Source: Octopus vulgaris
Taxonomy: Eukaryota
NCBI GenBank assembly: GCA_951406725.2
Contig: OX597824.1
Coordinates: forward strand, 27,714,001 to 27,778,000
Length of the DNA: 64,000 nucleotides
Direction: 5' to 3'
Numbering within the stretch: the stretch's first letter is position 1; every line of letters starts with the position of its first letter. A model generated the notes under the pieces. That model had not been told where the DNA came from, did not search any database, and saw only the letters and a program-made list of their open reading frames with translations. A program made the position numbers and the translations under genes. Of the stretch, positions 10,520 to 61,800 are shown piece after piece.

Positions 10520-11664
10520 TTTTCTTTCCGTAAGACAAGTAACAAAACAGTTTGATCGGTCTCTTATTGTGAGTTTTCTCTTGTAAATCAATTTTTGTGA
10601 ACCCATGGATAGATAAAAAATTTTGTGTTATGAAAATGAGTTTTTTCATGGAACAAATGCATCCCGGACAGCTCCAAACATCAATGAGGTGTTTGGTAAT
10701 GATGTGGCGAATGGGCGCACTGTACACCAATAGTTTGAGGAGTTCAGGTCTAGTGACTTTACCCTTGAAAATCAACCGTGTGGCAGACCAGAGACCAAGG
10801 TGGAAACTGATGTGCTGGAAAGTGTAGTGGAAGCGGATACATCTCAAATAACGCGTGAGTTAACAGCAAGGTTTGGTGTTTCCATTTCAACGGTATTAGA
10901 ACATCTGAAACAAATTGGCAAGGTAAAGAAGCTAGCCAAGTGGATGTCATACGAACCGAACGTGCATCAAATGACACGTCGTCTTCAAACTTGACGTTCT
11001 TTGCTGTCACAGCATAAAAGCGAACCATTTTCGCATCGTAATGTTAGGTGCGATAAAAAATGGATTCTTTTCAACAATAGCAAGCGATCTGCACGGTGAT
11101 TGGATAGAGACTAAGGGCCAAAACACAATCCCAAAAAGAATATTCACCAAAAATTTAATGGTATCTGTTTGGTGGTCCAGTGCTGGTGTCATTCGCTACA
11201 ACTTCATGAGACCTGGTAAATCAGCTATAGCAGATGTATGCATCAACCAATTTGATGAAATGATGAGTGAACGTGAAATTAAACAACCGAGATTGGTCAA
11301 GAAAGACGGGCCAATTCTCTTGGAAGACAATGCTCGACCAGATGTTGCACAAAAAAACATTACTCAAAGAACAGAACATGGAAATACTCTGTTTTCCACC
11401 ATATTCACCAGATCTTGCACCAACTGACTACCACGTTTTCCAGGCATTACTCTTTTTTACTCTTTTTACTTGTTTCAGTCATTTGGCTGCGGCCATGCTG
11501 GAGCACCGCCTTTAGTCGAGCAACTCGACCCCGGGACTTATTCTTTTTGTAAGCCCAGTACTTATTCTATCGGTCTATTTTTGCCGAACCGCTAAGTGAC
11601 GGGGACGTAAACACACCAGCATCGGTTGTCAAGCAATGCTAGGGGAACAAACACAGAAACACAA

Positions 11665-33305: not shown

Positions 33306-33348
<43 letters not shown>

Positions 33349-33380
33349 TTTATTTAAAGCAGCAGAAAATTCAACAAAAC

Positions 33381-33418
33381 CTGTTACTCAGAGTTTCACG
33401 TTGCCGTTCATCGGACAG
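33381..33418 (-). ncRNA. Mirror hammerhead motif in the left arm of the palindrome
   Basis: Minus strand ctgt CCGATGA acggcaacgt GAA ACTC-t-GAGT A acag. Confidence 0.7.
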
Positions 33419-33441
33419 TTTTTGCTAGATTCTAGCAAAAA

Positions 33442-33479
33442 CTGTCCGATGAACGGCAACGTGAAACTCAGAGTAACAG
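33442..33479 (+). ncRNA. Minimal hammerhead ribozyme motif in the right arm of the palindrome
   Basis: ctgt CCGATGA acg-gcaa-cgt GAA ACTC-a-GAGT A acag: GNRA-capped stem II, GUA triplet, U4-to-C. Confidence 0.7.
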
Positions 33480-33576
33480 GTTTTGTTGAATTGTCTGCTG
33501 CTTTAAATAAACCATATTACTCTACCGCTGGTATTTGAGTACTCTTTTTTCCACCTTGTTTCACATGTGTTTACTC

Positions 33577-33667
<91 letters not shown>

Positions 33668-33756
33668 GTATTTATGTATGTATGTACGTATTATGTCCAA
33701 AGGAATGGGGATTTTGAATCGGAGCAAGTACCTTATTAGCACTCTGGTAATGTGAT

Positions 33757-34290
33757 GAATATTTCAGAAATAGATGTTAAACTTGTTATTTATTCAACTG
33801 ACGATCCCAGAATATGTTTGTCATTCAGAGGGTGAAATCGATCGATATTGAAAATATACCTTCCTTACTTATTTATTCCATGCAAGGTAAGCCTGTTTCT
33901 TCTCTGATCATTGCATTGCCCGTTTGTATTTTAGTATTCAGTTAGTGATGGTCTTAGAGTGATGGCTCCGATTATAGCAAGTGGTAAATAAATACCTTAC
34001 TGAATCTAAATTTATCTTATATTTTGCCTGTAAAATTGTAAACTTCGTAGCCACCTTATTATTACAATTAATAATAGTAATAATACGTCATTATATAAAA
34101 TATATTGGCTCACGATAGTTCTGCTTTAAATGACGCGGGGTCGTTTAATGTAAAGAACACACGCCAAGTAATATTACGAATGTTTCAGGAATAGATGTTA
34201 AAACAGAGTACGTTTGTCATTCAGAGGGTGAAATCAATGGATATTGAAATATCCATTCCTTACTTATGTATTCCATGAAAGGTAACCCTG
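33757..34290 (+). repeat. Local diverged duplication (33757-33895 and 34178-34290)
   Basis: Shared gtttgtcattcagagggtgaaatc...ttccttactta...ttccatg.aaggtaa.cctg. Confidence 0.85.
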
Positions 34291-34707
34291 ATTAAATTTG
34301 GAGTCACATTATTATCTAAAATTTATTGAATTAGGTAGAACTATGTTAAGCAAGTATGTCTGATTAGGTGTTTCACTTTTAGTAGATAGGCACAGGATAG
34401 GTTAATAATTTTTATTATTTTTGTTTGTGTGGATTTGTTCCATTCTTTTTACAATGCAAAGGTCAAAGTTACAAGGTCCAGTATTTAAAATCTTAATAAA
34501 TGAATGAGTCGACATTTTGGTAATGGAAATTTTAGGCATTTACAAAAGTATGAAAGTAGGCAAATCGGTATTGTTTTTGCTTTTTCGTTACTTCTTATTT
34601 TTCACCATTTTGTCACCCTCTATCGTATTTAATGAAAATTATAGTTTTCCTTTTTGGTGATACATTGCGAAATCGCTGCCTAATCTCATTATATATATAT
34701 ACATACA

Positions 34708-38985: not shown

Positions 38986-40109
<1,124 letters not shown>

Positions 40110-40324
40110 ATATATATATATATATATATATCCGTCTATCTATCTATCCATCCATATATATATATATATATCTATCCATCCATATATATCTATCTATCCA
40201 TCCATATATATATCTATCTATCCATCCATATATATATATCCGTCTATCTATCTATCCATCCATCCATCCATCCATCCATCCATCCATCCGTCTGACCGTC
40301 TGTCCGTCCGTCCGTCCGTCCGTA

Positions 40325-40356
<32 letters not shown>

Positions 40357-40526
40357 CATCCGTCCGTCCGTCCGTCTCTCTGTCTGTCTATCTATCTGTC
40401 TGTCTGTCTATCTGTCTGTCTGTCTATCTATCTATCTATCAAGCTTTCTATCTGTCTGTCTGTCTATCTTTCTATCTGTCTGTTTGTCTATCTATCTATC
40501 TATCTATCCACATATATATATGTATA

Positions 40527-40577
<51 letters not shown>

Positions 40578-40595
40578 ACCTACCTACCTACCTAC

Positions 40596-40650
<55 letters not shown>

Positions 40651-40666
40651 CCTATCTATCTATCTA
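40110..40666. repeat. (TA)n/(TCCA)n/(TCTG)n/(TCTA)n compound microsatellite
   Basis: Direct reading. Confidence 0.95.
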
Positions 40667-41599
40667 ATGGTCAGGCGATCCATTTGCTGTCAACACCCGT
40701 TAAAAGGAGGGCTGGGCATGCCGTGGTTGATGATGCGCAGACACGCGCTGAGACTGCGACATCTCTGGCTCTATGTAGACGACGGTGAACAGGTGTGGTC
40801 GCCGTTTGTGAGGCACGCTTTCCCGCAGCTCGTCTCCATGACCGAACTGCAGTCGTGGATCAAAAAGAGGCCGAAGAAGGGCGAATGGCACCGCGAGTGT
40901 CGCTTTGCTCTCAAGCAACTCTGCCGTCCTGGGTCGACCTTGAGTGACTTCAACACAACCAAAGCATTCTATAGGGGTTTAGTGGAGGGGAGGTACGACG
41001 ACGAGCTCGGGGCGAACCTGGACGTCGACGAGGAGTACCTGACCCGCCTGTTCAGGACGACTTTCGGGCCAGGGCCCATGGACAACTTCCAGAGATCCCT
41101 GGCCTGGCAGTGCTACCGAGAAGCGCTACCCGTTCGGGATAAGCTCTACAGACACGGCTCGAGAAACACGGGGCCGACCTGCCCGAGATGCGGTCAGAGC
41201 GACGAAACCGTTCTGCACGCACTCGTGCAGTGTCCAACAATTTCCGACCTGTGGGCTTATGTCGAACAACTGCTGTCACGTGTGGGACGAGTCGGTTTAT
41301 CAGCTGAGTCTATCGTCAATATTGGCACGCCTCCCTCCTTCAAACGGGAAGGAAGAGCTATTTTCATCATCCTTGTGGCTATGGCGAAAGAATGTATCTG
41401 GTGGACGCGTCTGAAAGGATTGGAGACAAACACTTTCCTCGCTGGTCAATCTCTCATCAACTTCTTCAAGTACCACTTGAAAAGGAAAGTGAGAGTAGAG
41501 AGGCAAGTTTTGTCTAGCGAATGTTTTAAAAAAAGATGGGTGAATGTAGCAAGAATGGCACGTATGAATGACGAAGCCACCTTGAGCATGATCCTATGA
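40667..41599 (+). CDS. C-terminal ~310 aa of a Tx1/L1-like ORF2 (post-RT region, zf-RVT and CCHC knuckle), 5'-truncated
   Basis: PLKGGLGMP, LAWQCYREALPVRDKL, CPRCGQSDETVLHALVQC, AKECIWWTR; no internal stop; the first ~60 codons of the listed ORF are microsatellite. Confidence 0.85.
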   Translation: MVRRSICCQHPLKGGLGMPWLMMRRHALRLRHLWLYVDDGEQVWSPFVRHAFPQLVSMTELQSWIKKRPKKGEWHRECRFALKQLCRPGSTLSDFNTTKAFYRGLVEGRYDDELGANLDVDEEYLTRLFRTTFGPGPMDNFQRSLAWQCYREALPVRDKLYRHGSRNTGPTCPRCGQSDETVLHALVQCPTISDLWAYVEQLLSRVGRVGLSAESIVNIGTPPSFKREGRAIFIILVAMAKECIWWTRLKGLETNTFLAGQSLINFFKYHLKRKVRVERQVLSSECFKKRWVNVARMARMNDEATLSMIL

Positions 41600-59879: not shown

Positions 59880-61800
59880 CCAAAAGTGGAAGATCCCATC
59901 CTTTTCTCAACAACACTCACATGGATGCCGAGGTGAAAATACAAAATTTCGTCACCATCAGTGCCGATCGTACAGACCGATAAAACAGGACATTTTTCTC
60001 CATGACACCTCTGCAATTGATAGCTAGGACATATTTTCCAACGTCTACTGAGAACCATATCATTATTCAACAAGACCGACGACGTAACCTTTGTTGCTCT
60101 CGACAGGCCTCCCCAAGCACCTCTAAAGTGCTTTGAAGTATGTCTCAACAAAATCAAGTCCTTCTTTCAAAAATACATCTCTGGAAACTTACTGGTGTTG
60201 GGTGCCTTTAACCTCCCTTATGCAATCTGACCTATGAACACTCTGAAGTTAGGCAACTGCATAACAGCAGACAAAGCAGCAGCAAAATTACTCTTTAATC
60301 TAATGGATGGTTTTTTTCCTGACACGACTGTTGCTCAAACCAACAAGTTAGAATAAAATTATCTTGCACCTGTTATTAACAAACCACTCTAACTCCATTC
60401 ACAGTATTTCAATTGAAAAGCTTCTCCTCCCGGGCATGGTACTTTAATTTCCGGCATACCCAAATCCACTCTTCTGCTCTTATTTGACAACATAAAGTTC
60501 CATAAAGCGGATTGTGGACTAATTAGAAGTCTTTTATCGACTGGTCTTTCACTCTCAGTTCCACTGACATTGAAACCACATGGCAGCACTTTGAGGACGT
60601 TGTCACCTATATATGCTCAAAATAAGCATAGGACTGCTGTCTCACCCGCTGGTCCACTGATCGATGATAACAGCATTCTCCCACATGATGCTAAAGAAAC
60701 GGCAGAAGTGCTGCAAAAGCAATACTGCTCTATCTTTAGTGATCCCACTGCTATTGACTTAAGGGATGTGAAGGTAGTCGATCCTCAACATATAATCTCA
60801 GACTTAACTTTTACTGCTTCAGACATCATAGCAGCAATAAATGAGATCGAATACTATTCTGCTGTAGACCCTGATAGATTCATGCTAGTCTCCTGAAGAA
60901 ATATAGACATCAATTTGCAATCCTTCAATCAGCCTCTGGAGAAATTCTTTAGACTCAGGTTATATACCGAAATAGCTCTTATCTCAATCTGTCACCCCGG
61001 TTTTCAAACAGAGTAACAGATCCCTTTCAGTCAACTATATTCCATTCTCACACACCTCCATATCATCAAAGTATTTGAAAGAATGGTGAGATCAAGGATA
61101 GCTGGCTTCCTGGAGAGTCATAATCTCCTAAATTTAGACCAGCATGGCTTTCGCTACGGCAGGGACTGTTTAATATAACACTTACACCACATCGATGATG
61201 TCCTTAAAGCCTTGGTATCAGGTTCGAACTCTGATATCATATATCTTGGCTTCAGTAAAGCGTTCGACAGAGTCGACCACAATATTTTGCTGTCAAAATT
61301 GCCAAATTAGAATCCGTGGAAAACTACAACACTGGATTGAATATTTCCTGAAGAACAGAAGAAAACATGTAGTGATCCGTGGAATCCACTCAAGCCAAGC
61401 AAAATTCACCAGTGGTGTCCCTCAGGGGATAGTCTTTAGCCCGCGTATATTTATTGTCATAAAACACAGCAAAGTGAAAATATTCGCCGATGACGCCTAG
61501 CTCCAGAAAATTATCAACGAAGAAAAAGACCGAACTGAACTCTAGTCTGATCTACACGCTGGCAGTCAAAAACAAAATGCGACTAAGCGAAGAATAATTT
61601 AATTCATTTTGGTAACAAGTCTATGCTAAAATAACCATATACTCCTCCTTCATGGAAACCACTCACAACTTCTAATTAATATCAGAGACCTAAGAGTGAT
61701 TAATTGTTGACAACCTCAGCTGGAGTGTCCGTATCAAAAATAACGTCGATATAGCGTGTAGAATGAGTTTTTGGATCCTAAGAACATTCCCGTCCAGAGA
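59880..61800 (+). mobile_element. Decayed CR1/L2-group LINE (APE endonuclease and RT remnants)
   Basis: [90 protein letters not shown]; many stops and deletions. Confidence 0.88.

What the first reader, a model, noticed from the sequence alone, without database searches (positions are those of the whole stretch)
33349..33580. 163 bp palindrome made of two divergent hammerheads
Seen: loop-less inverted repeat whose arms each encode, on opposite strands, ctgt-CCGATGA-acggcaacgt-GAA-ACTCnGAGT-A-acag. One of only two arm mismatches is the unpaired centre of stem III. The right arm continues ~70 bp further, and the whole insert lies between (TA)n tracts. Established: PLE insertions often have inverted terminal-repeat copies. 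Inference: fold-back during reverse transcription. Any transcript would form an ~80 bp hairpin that masks the ribozyme and could be an ADAR or Dicer substrate. Both arms share the U4-to-C core variant.
Basis: partly seen in the sequence, partly recalled or inferred. Interest (0 to 1): 0.7.

Follow-up and report, generated by a model that had tools for sequence, protein, structure and literature searches.

The report
Head-to-head Penelope ends, twin-primed
This palindrome is one of hundreds of near-identical stubs left in TA repeats by an abundant Penelope-type jumping gene; its two halves, each with a predicted self-cutting RNA motif, were likely copied separately from the two ends of one DNA break rather than by folding back, so it is ordinary in kind but informative about how these elements insert.

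Summary
The palindrome is real: 81+1+81 nt with two arm mismatches. It is the 3' end (pLTR) of a Hydra-type Penelope-like retroelement with 5,117 exact ribozyme-core matches and 727-codon open frames whose predicted fold is closest to telomerase. The same centre recurs at 122 loci. The two arms end at two fixed sites 71 nt apart (A and B). In position-ordered samples 46 of 48 and 21 of 29 head-to-head pairs have one A and one B end. The arms share source variants, either arm can be the longer, and some pairs do not overlap at all. This argues against fold-back and for priming from both target strands on one source RNA (inferred). About 57% of ends stop at the ribozyme's 5' stem, but 0 of 31 read-through copies do; the cause is unknown. 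U4C is not family consensus (1,450 of 5,117); it marks a separate, more diverged lineage. The stem III mismatch is a private mutation. Cleavage, transcription and editing are untested. The inverted-end-plus-tail layout is published, and this scan noted the short-end/long-end rule before on other DNA of this genome.

The parts
33310..33347 (.). (TA)n target tract, left flank
   Evidence: sequence
33348..33429 (-). Short arm: inverted, 5'-truncated pLTR copy ending at fixed site A (junction 33347/33348)
   Evidence: 4,195 exact A-end junctions in the genome
33372..33427 (-). Type I hammerhead motif of the short arm (core CCGAUGA 33414-33408; private A-to-U change in the stem III loop at 33390)
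   Evidence: cleavage untested
33429..33431 (.). Head-to-head joint: 3-nt overlap with a central mismatch, found as T or A among copies
   Evidence: 122 loci; in 38 fetched pairs 22 one way and 16 the other
33429..33579 (+). Long arm: direct, 5'-truncated pLTR copy running through site A to fixed site B
   Evidence: 4,838 exact B-end junctions
33433..33488 (+). Type I hammerhead motif of the long arm: stem I 4 bp + 1x1 loop + 8 bp, core CCGAUGA 33446-33452 (U4C), 2-3 bp stem II with GCAA loop, palindromic stem III; predicted cut 33475/33476
   Evidence: same layout as Hydra-clade motifs in PMC8557442 File S2; cleavage untested
33513..33579 (+). Tail between sites A and B (67 nt; 4-nt deletion relative to most copies); in tandem copies it leads into the 5' UTR of the next unit
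33580..33655 (.). (TA)n target tract, right flank
   Evidence: sequence

Best explanation
The palindrome is a short insertion of an abundant Penelope-like retroelement with Hydra-clade motifs, and its two arms were likely made by two separate reverse-transcription events primed from the two ends of one cut in a TA repeat. Shown: the family, its intact open frames, two fixed 3' ends (A and B, 71 nt apart), the one-A-one-B pairing, independent 5' ends and shared source variants. Inferred: the element's endonuclease cuts both strands of (TA)n; one 3' end primes at A and the other at B of the same source RNA, probably through a protein dimer; the B copy displaces the A copy; both often stop at the 5' strand of hammerhead stem I; the two cDNA ends then anneal over 2-5 nt (here AAT against AAT with a central mismatch) and are repaired. 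The copy is most likely inert: no frame, several private changes, and a U4C core that would be masked in any read-through RNA.
For: Family: 5,117 exact core matches; 727-codon frames in 7 of 12 long loci listed; predicted fold closest to telomerase TERT, E 9.4e-10. A+B rule: 46 of 48 pairs in the regions of the first 100 matches on C1, none AA or BB; 21 of 29 pair rows in 40 further C4 regions, with 2 AA, 0 BB, 6 unclassified. A and B ends are about equally common, 4,195 and 4,838. Independent 5' ends: A arm longer 20, B longer 9, even 17 of 46; 4 pairs do not overlap. Same source: arms agree in 89, 92, 88 and 91 of 92 pairs at four polymorphic sites; shared minority variants 16 against 2.9 and 32 against 10.0 expected, 0 of 2,000 permutations reaching either; own partner is the best match in 12 of 15 long pairs, one a tie. 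In vitro precedent: a lizard PLE cuts and extends both strands from two internal sites that bound the tail (PMC11167929).
Against: One RNA molecule cannot be told from two RNAs of one source locus, and gene conversion between arms could add to the concordance. Exceptions exist: 3 BB and 1 AA among all 126 pairs, which include non-random sets, and 2 AA. Three of 15 long pairs matched another locus better. Two loci 111 Mb apart with different flanks share one rare subfamily and one unusual joint (L218, L240), which fits whole-unit copying of some palindromes. In the lizard assay start-site use did not differ between strands. The stop zone is unexplained. No biochemistry was done.
Confidence: 0.7

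Rival explanations
1. Fold-back or self-priming: one cDNA, or an antisense RNA, hairpins on itself and copies itself (the first reader's view; proposed for head-to-head PLE palindromes in PMC3846280).
For: Near-perfect symmetric centres at short self-complementary words: 122 and 213 loci for two centre types. Arms share variants. 17 of 46 pairs are even.
Against: The second arm must be nested in the first, yet the tail-less arm reaches further 5' in 20 of 46 pairs (13 of them by more than 30 nt) and 4 pairs duplicate nothing. Site A is also the 3' end of long copies and full-length units, as expected of a priming site. The 5' pile-up also occurs in copies with no partner arm detected.
Confidence: 0.1
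2. The short palindrome is a non-autonomous unit that is itself transcribed and re-inserted whole, so many copies descend from a few palindromic masters.
For: Recurrent identical centres. L218 and L240 share a rare subfamily and an unusual joint with different flanks.
Against: The same centre occurs in U4 and C4 lineages and with both central bases. No arm-specific variant recurs more than 3 times, while variants shared by both arms of single loci are common. Power is low in young copies.
Confidence: 0.13
3. The pair of ribozymes is a host-selected RNA device (ADAR or Dicer substrate, switch).
For: A read-through RNA would fold into an 80-bp hairpin on either strand; an estimated 1,200 such short hairpins exist (24 per 100 core matches; extrapolated).
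Against: This copy carries private changes like any ageing repeat; the layout follows from insertion; no exon-like frame was evident among the 37 frames of 150 codons or more in the window.
Confidence: 0.05
4. Assembly or long-read fold-back artefact.
For: Palindromes are a known artefact class (recalled); no contig spans this whole locus.
Against: Arms differ at 2-3 sites, flanks are not mirrored, ends follow a fixed A/B rule at many loci, and a contig of an independent run bridges the centre.
Confidence: 0.02

Closest known systems
Hydra clade of C-terminal endonuclease-positive Penelope-like elements (Craig et al. 2021, PMC8557442; passages, section 11, supplement parts seen)
   Same: RWK, DKT, CxCX5C linker, CxxC and CxH motifs; (TA)n target; type I hammerhead near the 3' end with palindromic ACTC-n-GAGT stem III. 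Hydra-2_aMil has the same stem I (ctgt/acag) and stem III. Penelope-13_HM has an inverted 5'-truncated copy with a hammerhead on both strands.
   Different: A different family from the listed Hydra-1_Obim (other hammerhead, visibly diverged protein; compared by eye only). Unit 3.36 kb against 'generally <3 kb'. Tail 71 nt against 30-40. Stem II only 2-3 bp. A C4 lineage exists, whereas all 26 Hydra-group rows of File S2 have U4.
Inverted pLTR plus optional tail of Penelope elements (Arkhipova et al. 2013, PMC3846280; parts 1-4 of 5 read)
   Same: Head-to-head inverted pLTRs, palindromic joints, tail on one of the two inverted ends.
   Different: That paper explains the palindromes by self-priming on an antisense template. 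The pairs here argue for two target-primed copies, and the tail is on one end as a near-strict rule.
Anolis Poseidon element PAc in vitro (Frangieh et al. 2024, PMC11167929; parts 1-2 of 4 read)
   Same: Both target strands cut and extended, two internal start sites bounding the tail, predicted dimer, hammerhead not needed for insertion.
   Different: The bulk assay saw no strand difference in start site and did not address pairing of sites on one target. Other clade. Here the hammerhead and tail lie upstream of the start codon.
L1 twin priming (recalled, no call)
   Same: Second priming from the other target strand, inverted 5' part, microhomology joint; 4 of 46 pairs here are such non-overlapping inversions.
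   Different: The internal site is fixed, not opportunistic, and the arms usually duplicate the same template stretch, giving palindromes.
Minimal, dimer-acting PLE hammerheads (Cervera and de la Pena 2014, PMC4209133; parts 1-2 of 4 read)
   Same: Type I, palindromic stem III too short for a monomer; oppositely oriented pairs 100-700 bp apart were noted in Schistosoma.
   Different: Lacks the usual G10.1-C11.1 pair; U4C core. The two motifs lie on opposite strands, so they cannot form a double hammerhead within one RNA.

Membership tests
Hydra-clade PLE | Single ORF with telomerase-like RT | tested here: met
   727-codon frames; model pLDDT 93, top PDB match TERT, E 9.4e-10. Pfam and PDB sequence searches found nothing relevant.
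Hydra-clade PLE | C-terminal GIY-YIG endonuclease lacking CCHH | tested here: inconclusive
   VVY...YTG motif and no CCHH by eye; no Pfam hit; the domain was not folded or searched separately.
Hydra-clade PLE | RWK, DKT, CxCX5C linker, CxxC and CxH beside conserved E and N | tested here: met
   All read in the L167 frame against the definitions.
Hydra-clade PLE | Insertion into (TA)n | tested here: met
   4,195 A and 4,838 B ends joined to TATA; flanks.
Hydra-clade PLE | Canonical hammerhead core in the pLTR | tested here: met
   Met for the family: U4 in 67 of the first 100 matches and in all 29 read-through copies with a visible core. This copy has the U4C variant.
Hydra-clade PLE | Generally shorter than 3 kb | tested here: not met
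   Unit 3,356 bp in L212; a tendency in the paper, not a strict criterion.
Hydra-clade PLE | Placement inside the clade in a protein tree | not tested
   Published Hydra proteins were seen only in the supplement; no tree was built with them.
EN+ PLE insertion architecture | Partial tandems, inverted 5'-truncated copy, one-sided tail | tested here: met
Active type I hammerhead ribozyme | Stems I-III around the conserved core | tested here: inconclusive
   The fold can be drawn (-8.2 kcal/mol) but is not the minimum (-12.1; z -1.1); stem III self-duplex -7.4. Between -135 and -72 the common variants fall only on N7, the stem II closing position, the stem I mismatch and one outside site; no compensatory pair was seen within the family.
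Active type I hammerhead ribozyme | Self-cleavage | not testable with these tools
   U4C is reported to lower activity considerably in vitro yet allow viroid infectivity (PMC3088659, passage).
Non-LTR retrozyme | Non-coding head-to-tail tandem of short hammerhead monomers | tested here: not met
   Head-to-head stub of a coding 3.36-kb unit; definition from bioRxiv 10.64898/2026.07.22.740005, part 1.

The most novel reading that the evidence does not exclude
Each insertion is made by a two-headed complex that primes the two DNA ends at two fixed, different sites of one RNA, and the hammerhead domain acts there not as a cutter but as a telomerase-like template boundary: about half of newly started copies abort at its 5' stem while copies passing it on a later round never do, littering the genome with over a thousand ribozyme hairpins.
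Probability: 0.3. Interest if true: 0.7.

Novelty: new member of a known kind. Interest (0 to 1): 0.4.

Why it matters
The locus itself is likely inert debris. The family is useful because the origin of head-to-head Penelope palindromes is an open question: self-priming was proposed (PMC3846280) and a 2021 paper calls for an in vitro system (PMC8557442). Thousands of young insertions give a near-strict one-short-one-long rule, same-source arms and an initiation-specific stop zone, each directly testable with the assay of PMC11167929 and one of the intact open frames. A role of the hammerhead fold as a boundary would bear on why PLEs keep weak ribozymes and on their kinship with telomerase.

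Tried and rejected
A fixed RNA 5' end at about -154 (initiator-like word) as the cause of the pile-up: rejected, since 0 of 31 read-through copies that reach this zone stop in it, against 95 of 167 (Fisher p 1e-10, U4 lineage alone 34 of 74, p 4e-7). An upstream hairpin as boundary: strong in C4 copies (median -13.6 kcal/mol, z -3.3, n 27) but weak in U4 copies (-4.0, z -0.8, n 106), which still pile up; not supported. Ribozyme cleavage as a source of 5' ends: 2 of 46 pairs start at the predicted cut (-107), but stem I microhomology explains them equally. A possible 3' splice site at the start of stem I was noticed by eye; cDNA ends run past it, and the RNA check was not obtained, so it stays open. 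Stalling of the B copy just before site A: 4 of 46 end at -50 to -56; suggestive, window chosen after the fact. No RNA holder listed; this says nothing on expression. A>G and T>C differences in run X9 are also in DNA runs, so no editing signal. Rfam, Pfam and PDB sequence searches were blank (one E 0.32 hit). Junction counts were dropped because overlapping loci were counted more than once. The tree holds only 4 C4 copies and is midpoint-rooted, so it does not give the order of U4 and C4. Literature searches found no paper stating the one-A-one-B rule; subscription journals are largely missing, and supplements other than that of PMC8557442 were not read.

Full report
Observation. The stretch 33349-33511 is an inverted repeat of 81+1+81 nt with mismatches only at 33390/33470 and 33367/33493; 500 shuffles give at most 10 bp of perfect arm against 39. 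Each arm holds a type I hammerhead layout on its own strand, the right arm runs on to 33579, and (TA)n flanks both sides. Rfam finds nothing. The window lies on contig C11 of a 2.8-Gb genome in 227 contigs; it is likely an octopus (my inference from size and repeat types; earlier scan notes also say so).

The family. A 33-nt core pattern has 5,117 exact matches, control 0. Walking upstream from longer copies led to a coding region; 727-codon frames stand in 7 of the 12 long loci listed (these loci were picked for long frames or divergent pairs). The unit is 3,356 bp in L212: hammerhead, tail, 5' UTR, frame, a 3' UTR of about 1.2 kb, hammerhead. There are 101 exact tandem junctions. The protein has 1,074 relatives among 7,996 scored. 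Its model (pLDDT 93) matches telomerase TERT best (E 9.4e-10). It shows the RWK, DKT, CxCX5C, CxxC and CxH motifs that define the Hydra clade. The endonuclease was judged by eye only, and no tree with published families was built.

Two fixed ends. Copies end at site A or at site B, 71 nt further 3'; exact junctions with TATA number 4,195 and 4,838. In the regions holding the first 100 core matches on C1, 46 of 48 head-to-head pairs have one A and one B end and 2 are unclassified. In 40 further regions chosen by position from the C4 list, 21 of 29 pair rows are A+B, 2 are AA, 6 unclassified; two regions gave two rows for one structure and one region holds a duplicated pair. Over all 126 pairs, which include sets chosen by centre or by similarity, the counts are 109 AB, 3 BB, 1 AA and 13 unclassified. 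The window's copy has A on the left and B on the right.

Fold-back fails as a general account. A copy made by folding back must be nested in the first strand. The tail-less arm reaches further 5' in 20 of 46 pairs, the tailed arm in 9, and 17 are even; 4 pairs do not overlap at all. The C4 sample gives 7, 6 and 8 of 21. Yet the arms come from one source: they agree in 89, 92, 88 and 91 of 92 pairs at core position 4, N7, the stem II closing base and position -79; shared minority variants exceed all 2,000 within-lineage permutations (16 against 2.9; 32 against 10.0); and the partner is the best match in 12 of 15 long pairs. I infer two target-primed copies from one source RNA, one begun at A and one at B, joined by 2-5 nt of microhomology. 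This matches the in vitro behaviour of a lizard PLE (PMC11167929), though that assay did not see a strand difference. One molecule versus two from one locus, and conversion between arms, are not excluded. L218 and L240 hint that some palindromes may move whole.

The centre. The window's joint is a 3-nt overlap with a central mismatch; it recurs at 122 loci, with either central base and in both lineages (22 and 16 of 38). A CTAG-centred joint occurs at 213 loci. Of 167 cores in the position-ordered samples, 95 stop at -141 to -155, the 5' strand of stem I. None of 31 read-through copies that reach this zone stops in it (43 junctions in 40 of the 101 places; 11 stop earlier, 1 unplaced). So the stop is tied to the repeat where copying starts. 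It is not a fixed RNA end, and an upstream hairpin does not explain it. A boundary role of the protein-bound hammerhead domain is my guess, untested.

The ribozyme. The layout equals that of Hydra-clade motifs: Hydra-2_aMil has the same stems I and III, and all 26 Hydra-group rows have U4 (PMC8557442 File S2). Stem III is a palindrome suited to dimers (PMC4209133; self-duplex -7.4 kcal/mol). The monomer fold is not the energy minimum. C4 is in 1,450 of 5,117 matches. All 29 read-through copies with a visible core and 56 of 61 long copies are U4, and C4 pairs are more diverged (2.3 against 0.6 arm differences per 66 nt). U4C is reported to lower activity in vitro (PMC3088659, passage). Common variants between -135 and -72 fall on unpaired or free positions, but no compensatory pair was seen within the family. 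The stem III mismatch is private: 1 of 92 pairs. On either strand the complement is transcribed before the sense motif, so an 80-bp hairpin of about -138 kcal/mol would mask it.

Outside evidence. Contigs of runs from three coded organisms hold the family, and one bridges the centre; none spans the locus. No listed run is on record as RNA, so transcription, editing and small RNAs are open.

Compared with what is known. Inverted pLTRs with a one-sided tail are described for PLEs (PMC8557442; PMC3846280), and self-priming was the proposed cause. A repeat annotation of Octopus vulgaris lists Penelope families but has no mention of Hydra, hammerhead or palindrome in its main text (PMC13282606, part 1 and term search). 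Six searches found no paper with the one-A-one-B rule; coverage is limited. Earlier notes of this scan report the same rule on other DNA of this genome; I saw them after my counts, and they are not independent support. Verdict: a new family member of a known kind, locally inert, with a moderately interesting mechanistic signature.

Noticed in passing
L167, L168, L170, L212, L213, L214 (for example G000:C4:132437500-132447000): Copies with uninterrupted 727-codon frames; several are 99-100% identical to L212, so the U4 lineage looks recently active.
   Followed up: partly
L212:8056-8060; window 33431-33435: A pyrimidine-rich stretch ending in TAG, with a branch-point-like word upstream in older copies, ends at the start of stem I, as the intron does in Drosophila virilis Penelope (PMC4209133). 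Splicing not shown.
   Followed up: no
L259, L275, L279: Head-to-head pairs in which both arms are read-through (more than unit length), which would fit long tandem or circular templates.
   Followed up: no
window 33446-33448: The C4 variant creates a CpG, so its deamination restores the canonical U4; single U4 arms inside C4-lineage copies may be decay rather than selection.
   Followed up: no
L039 (G000:C16:56608042-56611075), minus strand: A 204-codon piece with a CxxxxCxxC linker and GIY-YIG-like motif, probably another PLE family next to a copy of this one.
   Followed up: no
window 33747-33898 and 34168-34293: Two diverged direct copies of an unrelated repeat about 400 nt apart, right of the insert.
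   Followed up: no
window 40109-41599 +, 10975-11427 +, 60417-60896 +: Frames resembling retroelement or transposase remnants by eye.
   Followed up: no
L016 (G000:C14:22754300-22757452): A cluster of six arms of this family within 700 bp, suggesting repeated insertion into the element's own TA flanks.
   Followed up: no
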